In this document: in pieces, positions 3,611 to 15,255 of the stretch
Layout of the letters: every line of letters starts with the position of its first letter
How positions within the stretch are numbered: position 1 is the first letter of the stretch
Virus record (IMG/VR): IMGVR_UViG_3300029843_000046
From: a virus
Taxonomy: Duplodnaviria; Heunggongvirae; Uroviricota; Caudoviricetes
Length of the DNA: 15,255 nt
Strand: one strand, 5' to 3'
The notes under the pieces: model-generated
The model's input: only the letters and a program-made list of their open reading frames with translations
Databases searched by the model: none
What the model was told of the DNA's origin: nothing
Program-made: the position numbers and the translations under genes

Positions 3611-4042
3611 ATGTTCCTGAAAACAGAACAATTTGAATATAACGGTGTATCCGTCACGCTTTCTGAGCTGTCTGCGCTGCAGCGTATTGAGCATCTTGCC
3701 CTCCTGAAACGGCGGGCAGAAGAGGCTGAAGCCAGCGGCAACCTGCAGGTGAGTGTGGAAGATCTTGTCAGAACCGGCGCGTTTCTGGTGGCGATGTCCC
3801 TGTGGCATAACCATCCACAGAAAACGCAGTCACCGTCAATGAATGAGGCCGTGATGAAGATAGAGCAGGAAGTGCTCACCACCTGGCCTGCCGATGCCAT
3901 TGCCCGGGCGGAAGACGTGGTGTTGCGTCTGTCCGGGATGAGCGGGGCTGTTCATGTGGATACGGATATCACCGAAGTGGCGAAAAACAACGCGCTTACT
4001 GATGATGATTTTTCTGCGGGAAAGTCTTCGACGGCGAGCTGA
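3611..4042 (+). CDS. G: Tail assembly chaperone G
   Basis: 143 aa ORF after V; translation (MFLKTEQFEYNGVSVTLSELSALQRIEHLALLKRRAEE...) resembles lambda gpG. It ends 18 nt after the slippery heptamer GGGAAAG. Confidence 0.9.
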   Translation: MFLKTEQFEYNGVSVTLSELSALQRIEHLALLKRRAEEAEASGNLQVSVEDLVRTGAFLVAMSLWHNHPQKTQSPSMNEAVMKIEQEVLTTWPADAIARAEDVVLRLSGMSGAVHVDTDITEVAKNNALTDDDFSAGKSSTAS

Positions 4043-9392: not shown

Positions 9393-9438
9393 AAAGAATA
9401 AAAAAATCCCGCAGTGATCGCGGACAGGAACTGCGGGA
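9391..9438 (-). terminator. Minus-strand intrinsic terminator: 8-bp stem (9431-9438 / 9407-9414), then a U-run on the minus strand from 9406 to 9391
   Basis: Inverted repeat TCCCGCAG ... CTGCGGGA with a 16-nt loop. On the minus strand it is followed by TTTTTTTATTCTTTTT; on the + strand no T-run follows, so it is oriented for leftward transcription. Confidence 0.5.
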
Positions 9439-9496
9439 GAGTTACGAAGATTAAGTGTAAGGAATTATTCTTATATCACGACAAAAAAATTAACGC
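9395..9496 (-). ncRNA. Candidate ~100-nt small RNA in the I-J spacer, antisense to the late operon (predicted only)
   Basis: Bounded by the minus-strand promoter (-10 TATAAT at 9508-9503) and the minus-strand terminator (9438-9391). The AU-rich body has no ATG in any frame. Start and end are approximate. Confidence 0.3.
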
Positions 9497-9502
9497 AGAG
9501 AA

Positions 9503-9530
9503 ATTATACGCGCCACAGTCAGTTTGTGAA
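9503..9530 (-). promoter_or_regulatory. Sigma70-like promoter on the minus strand: -35 TTCACA (9530-9525), 16-bp spacer, -10 TATAAT (9508-9503)
   Basis: Read directly from the reverse complement: TTCACA-aactgactgtggcgcg-TATAAT, with an AT-rich upstream region and a second TTCACA copy 8 bp further upstream. Predicted transcription start near 9496. Confidence 0.45.
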
Positions 9531-9602
9531 AATGTGAAGATATTCAGAATTTTTATGCCATTACCGGTTTTAACCAACAGGATTATCGGTGGGCATGAAA
9601 GA

Positions 9603-9638
9603 AAACCCCGGTATCTGCTGATACCGGGGTTTCTCTTT
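9603..9638. terminator. Perfect 12-bp hairpin (AAACCCCGGTAT / ATACCGGGGTTT, loop CTGCTG) with T-rich flanks on both strands; possibly bidirectional
   Basis: Left arm 9603-9614, right arm 9621-9632, read from the sequence. CTCTTT follows on the + strand and TTTTC on the minus strand. Confidence 0.55.
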
Positions 9639-9735
9639 AGCATGGCAGAAATGTGTTTCATGCTTTTCGGGCGAAGGATATCCGACTTCTGTACGGAATG
9701 GCAAGTGGCGGTTAATTTATTCAGGGGAAGGCTGT

Positions 9736-12700
9736 ATGGGAAAAGGTGGCGGTAAGGCACACACGCCTCGTGAGGCGAAGGATAATCTCAAATCCACGCA
9801 GATGATGAGCGTGATTGATGCGATTGGTGAGGGACCGATAGAAGGTCCGGTGAAGGGACTGCAGAGTATCCTGGTGAACAAAACCCCGCTGACGGACACG
9901 GACGGTAATCCCGTGATACACGGTGTGACGGCGGTCTGGCGCGCCGGGGAGCAGGAGCAGACACCACCGGAAGGCTTTGAGTCCTCCGGAGCTGAAACCG
10001 GACTGGGCGTGGAAGTGACGAAGGCAAAACCGGTGACGCGCACCATTACGTCCGCGAACATTGACCGCCTGCGGGTTACCTTCGGGGTGCAGTCACTGGT
10101 GCAGACCACGTCAAAGGGCGACCGTAATCCTTCCTCTGTCCGGATTCTGATTCAGTTACAGAGTAATGGCCGCTGGGTGACGGAAAAGGATGTCACCATT
10201 AACGGCAAGACCACCTCGCAGTTCCTGGCGTCGGTGATTCTGGATAATCTGCCGCCCCGCCCCTTTAACATCCGGATGGTCCGGGAGACGGCGGACAGCA
10301 CCACGGACCAGTTGCAGAATAAGACGCTCTGGTCGTCATACACCGAAATCATCGATGTGAAACAGTGCTACCCGAACACGGCGATTGTGGGCCTGCAGGT
10401 GGATGCGGAGCAGTTTGGTGGTCAGCAGATGGCTGTGAACTACCATATCCGCGGTCGCATCATTCAGGTGCCGTCAAACTATGACCCGGAAAAACGCACG
10501 TACAGTGGTATCTGGGACGGCAGCCTGAAACCGGCATACAGCAACAATCCGGCCTGGTGTCTGTGGGACATGCTGACTCACCCGCGCTACGGCATGGGAA
10601 AACGTCTGGGGGCGGCGGATGTGGACAAGTGGGCGCTGTATGCCATCGGGCAGTACTGCGACCAGACGGTCCCGGATGGTTTCGGGGGGACCGAGCCGCG
10701 GATGACCTTTAATGCGTACCTGGCACAACAGCGTAAGGCGTGGGACGTTCTCAGTGATTTCTGCTCTGCGATGCGCTGTATGCCGGTATGGAACGGTCAG
10801 ACGCTGACGTTTGTTCAGGACCGCCCGTCGGATGTGGTGTGGCCGTACACCAACAGCGATGTGGTGGTGGATGATAACGGCGTGGGGTTCCGCTACAGCT
10901 TCAGTGCCCTGAAGGACCGGCACACGGCGGTGGAGGTGAATTACACCGACCCGCAGAACGGGTGGCAGACCTCCACGGAACTGGTGGAAGACCCGGAAGC
11001 CATACTGCGCTACGGACGCAACCTGCTGAAGATGGACGCGTTCGGCTGTACCAGCCGCGGTCAGGCCCACCGTGCCGGACTGTGGGTGATAAAGACCGAA
11101 CTGCTGGAAACGCAGACGGTGGATTTCACGCTCGGGTCTCAGGGGCTGCGGCACACACCCGGTGACATCATTGAAATCTGTGATAACGACTATGCCGGAA
11201 CCCTGACCGGCGGACGTGTCCTGTCCATCGATGCCGCCACCCGCACCCTGACGCTGGACCGTGAAGTGACACTTCCGGAGACCGGTGCCGCCACGGTGAA
11301 CCTGATTAACGGTAGCGGTAAGCCGGTGAGTGTGGACATCACCGCACACCCCGCGCCGGACCGGATACAGGTCAGTACCCTGCCTGATGGTGTGGAGACA
11401 TACGGGGTGTGGGGACTCTCCCTGCCGTCACTGCGCCGTCGCCTGTTCCGCTGTGTCTCCGTCCGGGAAAACACGGACGGCACCTTTGCCATCACGGCGG
11501 TGCAGCACGTACCGGAAAAAGAAGCCATCGTGGATAACGGGGCCCGCTTTGAGCCGCAGTCAGGCACCCTGAACAGCGTTATCCCACCGGCAGTGCAGCA
11601 CCTGACGGTGGAGGTGAGCGCAGCTGACGGCCAGTATCTGGCGCGGGCGAAATGGGACACGCCGCGGGTGGTGAAGGGCGTGCGCTTCAGTCTGCGCCTG
11701 ACCAGTGGTAAGGGAACGGATGCCAGACTGGTGACCACCGCTATCACCGCAGACACGGAGCACCGTTTCAGCGGCCTGCCGCTCGGGGAATACACCCTGA
11801 CGGTGCGGGCGATAAACAGCTATGGCCAGCAGGGTGAACCCGCCACCACCACCTTCCGGATTAACGCGCCAGCAAAACCCGCCACCATTGAGCTGACGCC
11901 GGGGTATTTTCAGATAACGGCGGTCCCGCGTCTTGCGGTGTATGACCCGACGGTACAGTTTGAACTCTGGTTCTCAGAAAAACGCATCACGAACACGGCA
12001 CAGGTGGAAAAATCTGCCCGTTATCTGGGGACCGGCAGTCAGTGGACTGTCCAGGGGAGCCGGATTAAGCCGGGGACGGATTTCTGGTTTTACGTGCGCA
12101 GCGTCAACCTGGTGGGAAAATCTGCTTTTGTGGAAGCCAGCGGGCAGCCCAGCAATGATGGTGAAGGGTATCTGGAAATTTTCCGGGGGCTGATAGATGA
12201 GACGCTGCTGGGCCAGGCACTGAAAAAGCGCATTGATGCTTCAGCGCTGCGTACGGAGGTCACGCAACTGGAAGAAGATATCCGTCAGCGGATGGACACG
12301 GATATCGCAGAAGTGACCCGGAAAATCGGGAAGGCGGAAAACAGCCTCACGCAGCTGGTTGCGAAAAAGAATGAGGACCAGACACTGGCCATCGCGCAGG
12401 TGAGCCAGAAAGTGGACCGGGTGAGCAGTGAAATCTCACAGACTGTCAGCCAGGGGCAGTCAGAAAACGCCCGACAGATAGCACAGGTCCGCCAGTACGT
12501 GGATAAAAAAGGGAGTGAAATTACCTCGACCACGGATAAAAAGCTGGGTGACCAGGCCGTGACCATACAGCAAATCCAGCGGGTTCAGTCAGACACGCGC
12601 AATGAGCTGAATGCCATGTATATGCTGAAGGTGCAGAAAACAAAAAACGGTATTCCCTATGTGGCCGGGATTGGTGCGGGGATTGAGGATGTTGATGGTC

Positions 12701-13428
12701 AGACCCTGAGTAACATTCTGCTGCAGGCCGATCGCATTGCGATGATTACCCCGGAGAACGGCAACACCACGCCGCTGTTTGTGGCGCAGGGGAATCAGCT
12801 GTTCATGAACGACGTGTTCCTGAAGCGACTGTTTGCGGTGAGCATCACGTCATCCGGCAATCCTCCTACGTTTTCCCTGACGCCGGATGGCAGGCTGGCA
12901 GCCCGCAATGCGGATATCAGTGGAGCCATCACGGCGAATACCGGCACGCTCAATAATGTCACCATTAACGAGAACTGTGTCATCAGAGGGAAACTGTCTG
13001 CAAACCAGATTGAAGGCGATCTCGTTAAAACAGTGGGTAAGGCTTTCCCCCGTGACTCCCGTGCACCGGAGAGGTGGCCATCAGGGACCATTACCGTCAG
13101 GGTTTATGACGATCAGCCGTTTGACCGGCAAATTGTTATTCCGGCGGTGGCATTCAGCGGTGCCAGACATGAGCGGGAGAATAACGATATTTATTCGTCA
13201 TGCCGCCTGATAGTACGGAAAAACGGTGCTGAAATTTATAACCGTACCGCGCTGGATAATACGCTGGTTTACAGTGGTGTTATTGATATGCCTGCTGGTC
13301 GCGGCCACATGACGCTGGAGTTTTCTGTATCAGCATGGTGGGTAAATGGCTGGTATCCCACAGCAAGTATCAGCGATTTGCTGGTTGTTGTGATGAAGAA
13401 AGCCACTGCAGGCATCACGATTAGCTGA
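9736..13428 (+). CDS. J: Central tail fibre / host specificity protein J
   Basis: 1230 aa with AGGGGAAGG ribosome-binding site. N-terminus [22 protein letters not shown] and long blocks ([96 protein letters not shown], the C-terminal block ending [17 protein letters not shown]...[19 protein letters not shown]) match lambda gpJ as I recall it. Confidence 0.95.
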
Positions 13429-14246: not shown

Positions 14247-15255
14247 ATGACAGTAAAAATTTCTGGCGTGCTTAAAGATGGCACAGGAAAACCAGTACAG
14301 AACTGCACCATTGTGCTGAAGGCCAGACGGACCAGCAGCACGGTGGTGGTGAACACGGTGGCCTCTGAAAATCCGGATGAAGCCGGGCGTTACAGCATGG
14401 ATGTTGAGTATGGCCAGTACAGCGTCACCCTGCTGGTTGAAGATTTTCCGCCTTCACATGCCGGGACCATTACCGTCTATGAAGGTTCCAGACCAGGTAC
14501 GCTGAATGATTTTCTCGGCGCCATGACGGAGGATGATGTTCGTCCGGAGGCACTGCGCCGTTTTGAGCTGATGGTGAATGAAGTGGCACGTCATGCCGGA
14601 GCGTCATCACAGAGTGCAGCGGCGGCAAAGAAATCCGAAACGGCAGCAGCCTCATCGAAGAATGCGGCGAAAACCTCAGAAACGAATGCAGCTAACAGCG
14701 CACAGGCGGCAGCGGCCTCGCAGACTGCATCGGCAAACTCCGCGACAGCAGCCAAAAAATCAGAAACCAGCGCGAAAAATAGCGAGACAGCCACAAAGGC
14801 CAGCGAAAAAAACGCAAAATCCAGCCAGACGGCAGCGAAAACCAGTGAGACGAATGCCAAAGACAGTGAAGCCAACGCAAAGGTGAGCGAAACAGCGGCG
14901 GCGAACTCGGCGAAAGCATCGGCAGCAAGCCAGACGGCAGCAAAAGCAAGTGAAGATGCTGCCAGAGAATACGCAAACCAGACAGCAGAGCCGTACAGAT
15001 ATGTTTTACAGCCGCTGCCGGATGTGTGGATACCCTTTAATGATTCGCTGGATATGATTACGGGCTATTCTCCGGGTTATAAAAAAGTGAAGATTGGTGA
15101 TAATGTGGTTCAGGTTGCCAGTGATAAACAGGTTAATTTCAGTCGCGCATCAACGGCAACATATATCAACAAATCTGGCGAACTGAAAACGGCGGAAATT
15201 AATGAGCCGCGATTTGAGTGTGATGGCCTGCTTATTGAGGGACAAAGAACGAACT
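14247..15255 (+). CDS. stf: Side tail fibre protein Stf, 5' portion (truncated by window end)
   Basis: ATG at 14247; the frame is open for 336 codons to the window edge. It is absent from the ORF track because it has no stop in the window. N-terminus MTVKISGVLKDGTGKPVQNCTI...GRYSMDVEYGQYSV...FPPSHAGTITVYE matches lambda Stf (orf-401) as I recall it, followed by an Ala/Ser/Thr/Lys/Glu-rich quasi-repetitive shaft. Confidence 0.85.
   Translation, partial: MTVKISGVLKDGTGKPVQNCTIVLKARRTSSTVVVNTVASENPDEAGRYSMDVEYGQYSVTLLVEDFPPSHAGTITVYEGSRPGTLNDFLGAMTEDDVRPEALRRFELMVNEVARHAGASSQSAAAAKKSETAAASSKNAAKTSETNAANSAQAAAASQTASANSATAAKKSETSAKNSETATKASEKNAKSSQTAAKTSETNAKDSEANAKVSETAAANSAKASAASQTAAKASEDAAREYANQTAEPYRYVLQPLPDVWIPFNDSLDMITGYSPGYKKVKIGDNVVQVASDKQVNFSRASTATYINKSGELKTAEINEPRFECDGLLIEGQRTN

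What the first reader, a model, noticed from the sequence alone, without database searches (positions are those of the whole stretch)
12223..12640. J is about 100 aa longer than lambda J, through a low-complexity, coiled-coil-like central segment
This J is 1230 aa against 1132 aa for lambda gpJ. Most of the protein aligns block by block with my recollection of lambda J. The exception is a stretch rich in Gln/Glu/Lys/Ser/Thr (roughly ...[34 protein letters not shown]...[28 protein letters not shown]), where lambda has a much shorter linker before the conserved YVAGIG...[17 protein letters not shown] region. This may change fibre length or flexibility. The C-terminal receptor-binding region looks lambda-like, but receptor specificity cannot be read from sequence here.
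Basis: partly seen in the sequence, partly recalled or inferred. Interest (0 to 1): 0.4.

Follow-up and report, generated by a model that had tools for sequence, protein, structure and literature searches.

The report
Repeat-lengthened helical shaft in tail-fibre J
This prophage's tail-tip protein J carries about 100 extra residues in one place, made of 29-residue helical repeats that should lengthen the rod holding the receptor-binding tip by about 15 nm; it is a common natural length variant of a known domain, not a new kind of element.

Summary
J (9736-13428, 1230 aa) aligns with lambda J end to end. The only gaps of 3 aa or more total 101 aa and all lie within aa 835-938.

The segment is not a linker and not truly low-complexity. 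It is an expansion of the alpha-helical shaft (AHS) that Ge & Wang 2024 defined in lambda J (residues 809-861), between the second fibronectin domain (FNIII-2) and the beta-prism.
- AlphaFold2, run twice, gives one continuous helix, aa 824-962.
- Hydrophobic periodicity is 3.65, not 3.5.
- The sequence is a tandem array of 29-residue (8-turn) repeats.

Relatives form a length ladder for this spacing: 75 aa (lambda), 103 (Stx phages), 176 (here), 212, 245 and 274. Where alignments are clean, the steps are 7, 11, 29 or 58 aa. Two relatives still show 87-nt and 174-nt DNA duplications.

The long allele occurs in 726 of 5426 complete E. coli genomes and in the deposited phage genomes PhiR40_1 and PhiR49_2.

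Most likely it is a trimeric helical rod about 15 nm longer than lambda's. Whether it also acts as a coiled-coil-to-beta-prism spring, as in F-pyocins, is open; the published switch motif is not enriched. The receptor-binding domain is only 41% identical to lambda's.

It is a modest finding.

The parts
9736..13428 (+). Gene J (central tail fibre / tip attachment protein), 1230 aa
   Evidence: ORF. Pfam hits to FNIII-A_GpJ, Phage-tail_3, Ig_J, Ig_J_second, Phage_Tail_Tip and Ig_GpJ_C. PDB lambda J at E=0. PHROG 31 'central tail fiber J'. Lambda-like gene order ...H-M-L-K-I-J-lom-stf.
11875..12183 (+). FNIII-2 domain (aa 714-816), the conserved N-terminal flank of the shaft
   Evidence: Pfam Ig_J_second, 9.4e-39, aa 714-816. 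It ends in the motif [17 protein letters not shown], which I used as the anchor for measuring shaft length.
12160..12243 (+). N-terminal cap of the alpha-helical shaft (aa 809-836), homologous to the upper AHS helix of lambda J
   Evidence: Aligns to lambda 811-838. AF2 gives a short helix at 809/810-821/822 and the start of the long helix at 824.
12244..12549 (+). The segment absent from lambda J (aa 837-938, 102 aa). It falls at the junction between lambda's upper (809-840) and lower (841-861) AHS helices.
   Evidence: HMMER and global alignments. AHS sub-division from PMC11101478. This DNA is found in 726 of 5426 complete E. coli genomes.
12205..12621 (+). Predicted single continuous alpha-helix, aa 824-962 (about 139 residues, about 21 nm)
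   Evidence: AF2 with a 14-row MSA gives helix 824-962 with pLDDT 72-93 over 843-953. AF2 on the single sequence gives helix 824-961 with pLDDT 86-97 over 840-950. Hydrophobic periodicity is 3.65.
12238..12324 (+). 29-residue repeat 1 (aa 835-863) [29 protein letters not shown]
   Evidence: Offset-29 self-similarity and the stacked register.
12325..12411 (+). 29-residue repeat 2 (aa 864-892) [29 protein letters not shown]
12412..12498 (+). 29-residue repeat 3 (aa 893-921) [29 protein letters not shown]
   Evidence: This unit is duplicated again in L042 as an 87-nt tandem repeat.
12499..12585 (+). 29-residue repeat 4 (aa 922-950) [29 protein letters not shown]
   Evidence: Its C-terminal part aligns to lambda 841-851, part of the segment that converts from helix to beta-strand on LamB binding.
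12586..12672 (+). Repeat 5 (aa 951-979) [29 protein letters not shown], which spans the helix end and the first beta-strands of the prism
   Evidence: AF2 strands at 964-968 and 974-978. Conserved in lambda and Stx J.
12622..13032 (+). Central straight fibre (beta-prism), aa 963-1099
   Evidence: Pfam Phage_Tail_Tip, aa 944-1071. 65% identical to lambda over aa 973-1099. Domain names from PMC11101478.
13033..13425 (+). C-terminal Ig-like receptor-binding domain, aa 1100-1230
   Evidence: Pfam Ig_GpJ_C, 4.8e-38. 41% identical to lambda and 95% to PhiR40_1. Closer to the OmpC-using A8 gpJ.
11600..11936 (+). Approximate recombination junction inside J. Upstream is Stx-phage-like; downstream is PhiR40_1-like and carries the shaft, prism and RBD as one cassette.
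   Evidence: Sliding nucleotide identity: 9836-11535 is 91-98% to Stx2a_WGPS8 (first 100 nt 85%), and 11936-13428 is 93-100% to PhiR40_1.

Best explanation
The extra ~100 residues are an expansion of a known J domain, the alpha-helical shaft (AHS). In lambda this is a three-helix bundle between FNIII-2 and the beta-prism fibre.

What the sequence shows:
- The shaft here contains about five in-register copies of a 29-residue unit (8 helical turns; 7+11+11). Lambda has about 1.5 copies.
- The core stripe is rich in Ile and Val.
- Each chain is predicted to form one uninterrupted helix of about 139 residues.

What I infer:
- Three chains pack as a nearly straight, parallel trimeric rod of about 21 nm.
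- This places the beta-prism and receptor-binding domain about 15 nm farther from the tail tip than in lambda.
- The rod acts as a length-setting spacer. It gives more reach towards an outer-membrane receptor, for example through O-antigen or capsule.
- It remains part of the element that must collapse or swing aside after receptor binding so the tail tip can reach the membrane.

How the length varies:
- Length changes by tandem duplication or deletion in helix-compatible quanta (7, 11, 29, 58 aa).
- The shaft travels by recombination together with the prism and RBD as a C-terminal cassette.
For: Shown directly:
- The insert is single and sits at lambda 838-840, inside the AHS 809-861 (AHS definition in PMC11101478).
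- Two independent AF2 runs give a continuous helix at 824-962 and 824-961 with pLDDT up to 97, and no dips at G865, G907, G926 or G938.
- Hydrophobic periodicity peaks at 3.65, with 0 of 1000 shuffles reaching it. There is no signal at 3.5.
- The offset-29 self-similarity scores 102 against a shuffle maximum of 48.
- Of 36 residues on the core face, 17 are Ile or Val. The opposite face is Q/E/A/S/R/K.
- The FNIII-2 to YVAGIG spacing forms a ladder: 75 (lambda), 103 (Stx), 176 (window), 212, 245 and 274 aa. All stay in the same 29-residue register.
- Differences from the window allele are exactly +7+29, +11+58 and +11+87 aa.
- DNA-level tandem repeats of 87 nt (L042) and 174 nt (L058) are still visible.
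- The allele is common and intact. The insert DNA is in 726 of 5426 complete E. coli genomes (1060 places). The same 701-nt region is 99.4% identical in the deposited phage genomes PhiR40_1 and PhiR49_2, listed with host ECOR13.
- The cassette is mobile. The 3' 1.5 kb of J is about 99% identical to PhiR40_1, while the 5' 1.9 kb is about 95% identical to an Stx phage.
- The same RBD cluster occurs with shafts of 75, 103, 176 and 212 aa.

From established knowledge:
- Helix rise is 0.15 nm per residue, so 101 aa is about 15 nm.
- Beta-branched residues in the core favour trimers (Harbury rules).
- J is a trimer in every solved structure.
Against: - The trimeric state of this shaft was not modelled; only monomer AF2 was available.
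- No micrograph of a phage with this allele was found, so the 15-nm extension is computed, not measured.
- In lambda the AHS flips 180 degrees and wraps the top of the prism. A 21-nm helix cannot do that in the same way, so the post-binding behaviour of the long shaft is unknown.
- The 'reach through O-antigen or capsule' rationale is untested inference.
- Each repeat has polar or Gly residues at two core positions (columns 15 and 19). These could create hinges that the monomer model does not show.
Confidence: 0.7

Rival explanations
1. Metastable spring. The whole long coiled coil converts to a beta-prism after receptor binding, as the 163-residue shaft of the F7 pyocin central fibre does. 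Extra repeats would then add stroke and stored energy, not just reach. This is compatible with the best explanation for the resting state and differs only in what the shaft does after binding.
For: - The shaft has the same position and flanks as the F-pyocin shaft, between FNIII-2 and the beta-prism (PMC12874032; PMC13455828).
- He et al. predict such switches in 21 of 24 siphophage central fibre proteins.
- In lambda itself, residues 841-861 turn from helix into beta-strands.
- The window repeats are paralogues of that segment: the offset-29 alignment runs through aa 910-931 against 939-960.
- Two perfect SxSxxMxxLxS matches lie at aa 942 and 950, next to the prism seed.
- The segment is rich in beta-branched residues and Gln.
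Against: - The published switch motif is not enriched in helix 824-962. There are 9 near-matches against 12.2 +/- 3.5 expected, and the z-score for perfect matches is 0.9. The eight-repeat relative P0043 has z = 0.0.
- The same scan gives z = 2.0-5.3 in 8 of 9 distant long-shaft J-like proteins used as positive controls.
- Ala is 8-9% here, whereas He et al. report 68% Ala at their small-residue 'S' positions.
- He et al. state that lambda does not show the extensive switch.
- There is no period-2 signal.
Confidence: 0.22
2. Docking platform for side fibres, as in F2-pyocin, where three side-fibre trimers attach to a kink in the long AHS.
For: F2-pyocin's extended AHS is the side-fibre attachment site (PMC13455828; bioRxiv 2026.02.24.707460). 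A side-fibre gene follows lom in this window, starting at 14247.
Against: - The Stf N-terminal region here is 73% identical to lambda Stf over its first 158 residues. This covers the collar domain (residues 1-94), which clamps the gpV/gpM junction and not J (PMC12617516).
- The shaft has no sequence similarity to the pyocin shaft. The PDB match to 25vf covers only aa 3-695.
- AF2 predicts no kink.
Confidence: 0.04
3. A flexible or disordered low-complexity linker with no defined structure, tolerated as neutral length variation.
For: Biased composition (Q/E/K/S/T-rich, no aromatics or Pro). Only sub-threshold Pfam matches in the segment.
Against: - Strong helical periodicity.
- High-confidence continuous helix in two AF2 runs.
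- Indels between alleles are restricted to 7, 11, 29 and 58 aa, which keeps the hydrophobic stripe in phase.
- Entropy is near the protein average.
Confidence: 0.03

Closest known systems
Alpha-helical shaft (AHS, residues 809-861) of phage lambda gpJ (Ge & Wang 2024, PMC11101478; PDB 8XCK/8XCI)
   Same: Same protein family and same position between FNIII-2 and the beta-prism. Both ends of the shaft are homologous: window 809-836 matches lambda 811-838, and window 939-962 matches lambda 840-863. Both are helical, and the flanking domains are 65-74% identical.
   Different: The shaft is about 153 residues against 53. About five 29-residue repeats are in register, against about 1.5. The lambda AHS segment shows its peak near 3.5, whereas here the peak is 3.65. 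The lambda-style 180-degree flip and wrap cannot be assumed for a helix four times longer.
J of phages PhiR40_1 and PhiR49_2 (PV340560, PV340570; 1232 aa), and J of Stx phages such as Stx2a_WGPS8 (1160 aa)
   Same: PhiR40_1 and PhiR49_2 carry the same shaft, prism and RBD cassette (99.4% nt identity over 12100-12800). Stx-phage J shares the hub and FNIII part at 92% aa identity.
   Different: The PhiR40_1 hub is lambda-like (77% aa identity), so the window gene is a recombinant. Stx J has an intermediate shaft, with a spacing of 103 aa against 176 here.
Coiled-coil shaft of F-type pyocin central fibre proteins (F7: He et al. 2026 preprint, PMC12874032; F2: PMC13455828 and bioRxiv 2026.02.24.707460)
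   Same: A long trimeric helical shaft between FNIII-2 and a beta-prism in a J homologue. The hub is homologous (PDB 25vf, E=1.8e-122 over aa 3-695).
   Different: There is no detectable sequence similarity in the shaft. The pyocin shaft has a canonical heptad register, against 29/8 here. The SxSxxMxxLxS switch motif is not enriched here. Pyocin side fibres dock on the shaft, whereas Stf here has the lambda collar domain.
SF-assemblin 29-residue segmented coiled coil (PMC2119799)
   Same: The repeat length is also 29 residues. SF-assemblin forms a segmented coiled coil.
   Different: This is an unrelated eukaryotic cytoskeletal protein. The resemblance is in repeat arithmetic only; homology was not tested and is not expected.

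Membership tests
Lambda-type central tail fibre protein J | N-terminal hub domains and two FNIII/Ig domains homologous to lambda gpJ | tested here: met
   PDB 8iyk at E=0 over 1-836. Pfam FNIII-A_GpJ, Phage-tail_3, Ig_J and Ig_J_second. 74% identity over aa 1-816.
Lambda-type central tail fibre protein J | C-terminal beta-prism fibre (Phage_Tail_Tip) and Ig-like RBD (Ig_GpJ_C) | tested here: met
   PF09327 at 4.4e-24 and PF12421 at 4.8e-38. Alignment to 8xcj and 9wca.
Lambda-type central tail fibre protein J | Gene order H-M-L-K-I-J-lom-stf | tested here: met
   ORF map, lambda annotation, and RefSeq annotation of a 98.3% identical prophage.
Alpha-helical shaft (AHS) of gpJ | Helical segment directly between FNIII-2 and the beta-prism | tested here: met
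   AF2 helices at 809-821 and 824-962, followed by strands at 964-978.
Alpha-helical shaft (AHS) of gpJ | Parallel three-helix bundle | not testable with these tools
   Only monomer prediction was available. The Ile/Val-rich core stripe and the trimeric state of all solved J structures make a trimer likely.
Canonical heptad coiled coil | Hydrophobic periodicity of 3.5 residues | tested here: not met
   Power at 3.5 is 1.1, against a shuffle mean of about 10. The peak is at 3.65. The register is 29/8 (7+11+11), so this is a non-canonical, nearly unsupercoiled bundle.
Fold-switching (coiled coil to beta-prism) central fibre shafts, He et al. 2026 | Conserved SxSxxMxxLxS pattern throughout the switching region | tested here: not met
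   z = 0.9 (perfect matches) and -0.9 (at least 4 of 5 positions), against z = 2.0-5.3 in 8 of 9 distant long-shaft J-like proteins. Only two perfect hits, at aa 942 and 950.
Fold-switching (coiled coil to beta-prism) central fibre shafts, He et al. 2026 | Both conformations predicted for the trimer (AF3 or CF-random), or observed | not testable with these tools
   No multimer prediction was available.
Low-complexity region | Markedly reduced sequence entropy | tested here: not met
   40-aa window entropy is 3.3-3.7 bits, against a mean of 3.77 +/- 0.16. The protein's minimum is elsewhere. 15 residue types are used.
Tandem-repeat protein domain | Significant internal periodic self-similarity, with copy-number variation among alleles | tested here: met
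   Offset-29 diagonal scores 102 against a shuffle maximum of 48. Alleles have 1.5 to 8 units in register. Relatives carry 87-nt and 174-nt DNA repeats. No DNA-level repeat is detectable in the window itself.

The most novel reading that the evidence does not exclude
Lambdoid J shafts could be a natural allelic series of a tunable spring or ruler.
- Each 29-residue unit is a paralogue of the lambda segment 841-861, which switches from helix to beta-hairpin.
- Copy number (about 1.5 in lambda up to 8 in relatives) would then set both the stand-off distance and the stroke or energy released when the shaft collapses onto the prism.
- This would extend the F-pyocin fold-switch mechanism to close lambda relatives using a different sequence code from the published SxSxxMxxLxS motif.
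- It would give a genetically tractable system (lambda chassis with natural shaft alleles) for testing how non-contractile tails generate the force or approach needed to reach the membrane.
Probability: 0.2. Interest if true: 0.6.

Novelty: new member of a known kind. Interest (0 to 1): 0.3.

Why it matters
The shaft of J links receptor binding at the fibre tip to opening of the tail tip, and in lambda it is the part that rearranges most. E. coli prophages turn out to carry discrete shaft alleles that share the same hub, prism and RBD types and differ in copy number of a 29-residue unit.

This natural series could be used:
- to test whether fibre length affects access to receptors through O-antigen or capsule;
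- to test whether the shaft stores energy, as in F-pyocins;
- to inform engineered lambda-based delivery particles. The published gpJ chimeras were fused at lambda residue 964, so they keep lambda's short shaft.

For annotation, it explains why J homologues of 1132, 1160, 1230 aa and longer are all intact.

Tried and rejected
- Pfam on the isolated segment gave only sub-threshold matches to eukaryotic coiled-coil families (CCDC-167, LUC7, apolipoprotein). These reflect composition, not homology.
- Foldseek of the AF2 model against PDB matched only the FNIII-2 part to lambda J. The long helix gave nothing informative.
- The search for homologous proteins with the segment returned only short or partial E. 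coli J fragments. These served for an MSA but not for a survey.
- The genome-contig scan returned mostly lambda itself as a contaminant in unrelated genomes, so cross-species diversity could not be sampled that way.
- TRF found no DNA-level tandem repeat in the window's shaft. The repeats are old and visible only at protein level here.
- The F-pyocin switch motif scan was negative for this shaft.
- Foreign origin of the insert by composition was rejected. GC is 0.53-0.55, like the flanks; the insert is only A-rich from codon usage.
- The antisense ORF 12285-12566 and ORF 9414-9755 have no PHROG family match. There are no Rfam matches anywhere in the window.
- Literature searches found no description of shaft-length alleles or a 29-residue repeat in lambdoid J. 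That is absence in the held library only.
Full report
**Context.** The window is the late structural region of a lambdoid E. coli prophage. It runs from the major capsid gene to the start of the side tail fibre gene, in lambda's gene order. The closest complete genome matches the whole window at 98.3% identity and is annotated accordingly, with gpJ at the same length of 3693 nt. Gene J is 9736-13428 on the + strand and encodes 1230 aa.

**Checking the observation.** Lambda J is 1132 aa.
- HMMER against solved structures aligns window J 1-836 with lambda J 1-838, and 939-1229 with 840-1131.
- A global alignment has only two gaps of 3 aa or more. They are 36 and 65 aa, both between aa 835 and 938.
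- The ~100 extra residues are therefore concentrated in one place: aa 837-938, nt 12244-12549. The quoted peptides are there.
- The composition is biased. Q, T, E, V, K and S are each 9-12%, there is no P, F, W, C or H, and aa 806-973 is a 168-aa Pro-free stretch.
- Entropy is only slightly below the protein average, so the segment is not low-complexity in the usual sense.

[quoted passage not shown] The AHS is a three-helix bundle with an upper helix (809-840) and a lower part (841-861). The insert lies exactly at the 840/841 junction, so it is an expansion of the AHS and not of a linker.
- AlphaFold2 with a small MSA predicts one uninterrupted helix at aa 824-962, with pLDDT 72-93 over 843-953.
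- AlphaFold2 on the single sequence predicts helix 824-961 with pLDDT 86-97 over 840-950. A short helix at 810-822 precedes it, and the first prism strands at 964-978 follow it.
I draw no conclusions from it.

**Periodicity and repeats.**
- Hydrophobicity has a very strong period of 3.65 residues: power 138 at 3.65 (131-134 at 11/3) against a shuffle mean of 10, with 0 of 1000 shuffles reaching the observed power at 3.6 or 3.67. There is no signal at the heptad value of 3.5.
- Self-comparison shows why. There is a 29-residue tandem repeat. The offset-29 diagonal scores 102 against a shuffle maximum of 48, and offsets 58 and 11 also stand out.
- Rows start at aa 835, 864, 893, 922 and 951.
- 29 residues per 8 turns is 3.625, that is 7+11+11. 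This predicts a nearly unsupercoiled bundle.
- On the core face, 17 of 36 residues are Ile or Val. Polar or Gly residues recur at two core columns (15 and 19) of each repeat. The opposite face is Q/E/A/S/R/K.
- From general coiled-coil knowledge, beta-branched cores favour trimers, and J is trimeric in all solved structures. The trimer itself could not be modelled here.

**Length polymorphism.** I measured the spacing from the FNIII-2 motif (SVN..GKS.F) to YVAGIG in related loci and in database representatives.
- The spacing is 75 aa in lambda, 103 in Stx phages, 176 here, 212 (L042 and L050), 245 (L058) and 274 (P0043).
- Stacked from the prism backwards, all alleles stay in one 29-residue register.
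- Relative to the window allele, the longer ones differ by exactly +7+29, +11+58 and +11+87 aa.
- L042 still carries an 87-nt x2 DNA tandem repeat, and L058 a 174-nt x1.9 repeat. The window's own repeats are too diverged to show at DNA level.
- The lambda-to-Stx step is 28 aa and the Stx-to-window step is 73 aa. These correspond to about 8 and about 20 turns, but those alignments are not clean enough to decompose.
- Indels restricted to helix-compatible quanta are independent evidence that the whole segment is under selection as a phased helical bundle.
- In more distant J-like proteins the same spacing reaches 231-639 aa. Lambda is therefore the short extreme of a continuum.

**Distribution and mobility.** Counts are in 5426 complete E. 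coli genomes.

| Shaft probe | Genomes | Places |
|---|---|---|
| Window-type insert DNA | 726 | 1060 |
| Lambda-type shaft | 2516 | 3746 |
| Stx-type shaft | 695 | 2788 |

- The best matches for the window-type insert include strains named S88, IHE3034, O7:K1 str. CE10 and PMV-1.
- About 15,400 places match the prism start at lower stringency.
- The region 12100-12800 is 99.4% identical in the deposited phage genomes PhiR40_1 and PhiR49_2, listed with host ECOR13.
- The window's J is a recombinant. Nucleotides 9836-11535 are 91-98% identical to an Stx2a phage J (the first 100 nt are 85%), and 11936-13428 are 93-100% identical to PhiR40_1 J.
- In the sampled loci the window's RBD cluster occurs with shafts of 75, 103, 176 and 212 aa. 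Shaft length is therefore not tied to one RBD type. The sample is biased towards close relatives.

**How it most likely works.**
- Shown: an expanded helical repeat domain in the AHS position.
- Inferred: three such helices form a rod of about 21 nm (139 x 0.15 nm). This puts the prism and RBD about 15 nm farther from the tail tip than in lambda, where the tube sits about 17 nm above the membrane in type I complexes (PMC12617516).
- The functional reading is inference only: more reach to an outer-membrane receptor, possibly through O-antigen or capsule.
- After binding, the lambda AHS flips 180 degrees and wraps the prism top, and 841-861 becomes beta-strand. How a shaft roughly three to four times longer behaves is unknown.

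**The spring rival.**
- He et al. (PMC12874032) show that the 163-residue coiled coil of the F7 pyocin J homologue converts to a beta-prism and that this is needed for killing.
- They predict the same in 21 of 24 siphophage fibres and define an SxSxxMxxLxS motif.
- In favour here: the repeats are paralogues of the lambda switching segment, and two perfect motif matches lie next to the prism at aa 942 and 950.
- Against: the motif is not enriched in this shaft (z = 0.9) or in the eight-repeat relative P0043 (z = 0.0). My scan does detect enrichment (z = 2.0-5.3) in 8 of 9 distant long-shaft J-like proteins.
- He et al. also note that lambda lacks the extensive switch.
- I rate this rival at about 0.2. 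It needs trimer modelling or cryo-EM to settle.

**Other rivals.**
- Side-fibre docking on the shaft, as in F2-pyocin, is unlikely. The Stf N-terminal region here is 73% identical to lambda's over its first 158 residues. That region includes the collar domain (residues 1-94), which clamps the gpV/gpM junction.
- A disordered linker is contradicted by the periodicity, the AF2 confidence and the quantised indels.

**Receptor-binding domain.**
- It belongs to the lambda RBD fold family (PF12421).
- It is only 41% identical to lambda over aa 1100-1230.
- It is 57-67% identical to the OmpC-using A8 gpJ chimera (PDB 9wca; Brodel et al., PMC11338833).
- It is 62% identical to phage 21, and 94-96% identical to PhiR49_2, 2G7b and many Stx2a phages.
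- The receptor cannot be assigned from sequence.

**Verdict.** The element is an already annotated gpJ with a repeat-expanded version of a known domain, common in E. coli. What may be new is a modest structural detail: the 29-residue register and the quantised allelic ladder in lambdoid J. I found no description of it in the held literature. Interest is moderate to low, unless the shaft proves to be a tunable fold-switch spring.

Noticed in passing
window 9736-13428 (junction about 11600-11936): J is a mosaic. The 5' ~1.9 kb is about 95% identical to Stx2a_WGPS8 J. The 3' ~1.5 kb (end of FNIII, shaft, prism, RBD) is about 99% identical to PhiR40_1 J, whose own 5' part is lambda-like.
   Followed up: partly
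window 9393-9735: There is a 343-nt gap between the end of gene I and the J start codon; lambda has 60 nt. It contains ORF 9414-9755 (113 aa, GTG start, overlapping the J start), which has no PHROG match. The same spacing is present in the closest genome.
   Followed up: partly
window 4018-4024: A GGGAAAG slippery heptamer lies just before the end of the G-like ORF (3611-4042). This is where lambda's G/GT -1 frameshift site would be expected.
   Followed up: no
window 12285-12566 (- strand): A 93-aa antisense ORF lies entirely inside the insert. It has no family match and is probably a by-product of the A-rich sense codons (AT skew about +0.4).
   Followed up: partly
window 14247-15255: This is the start of the side tail fibre gene. 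The N-terminal collar region is 73% identical to lambda Stf. It is followed by Ala/Ser/Thr/Lys-rich 'AAKxSETNA'-type repeats, as in lambda Stf.
   Followed up: partly
loci L091-L102 (genome-contig scan): Lambda-type J sequences turned up in assemblies of unrelated bacteria (Pseudomonas, Shewanella, Bradyrhizobium, Bacillus relatives), several on ~48.4-48.5 kb contigs. This looks like lambda contamination of those assemblies.
   Followed up: no
proteins P0048-P0090 (representative library): Many 50%-cluster representatives carrying J C-termini are chimeras with unrelated N-terminal parts (terminase, portal, tape measure, methyltransferase). These are probably assembly or gene-calling artefacts around lambdoid prophage repeats.
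   Followed up: no
locus L067 and protein P0051: In these two sequences the shaft-to-prism-start region appears twice in tandem within one reading frame. This may be a real internal duplication of J or a misassembly.
   Followed up: no
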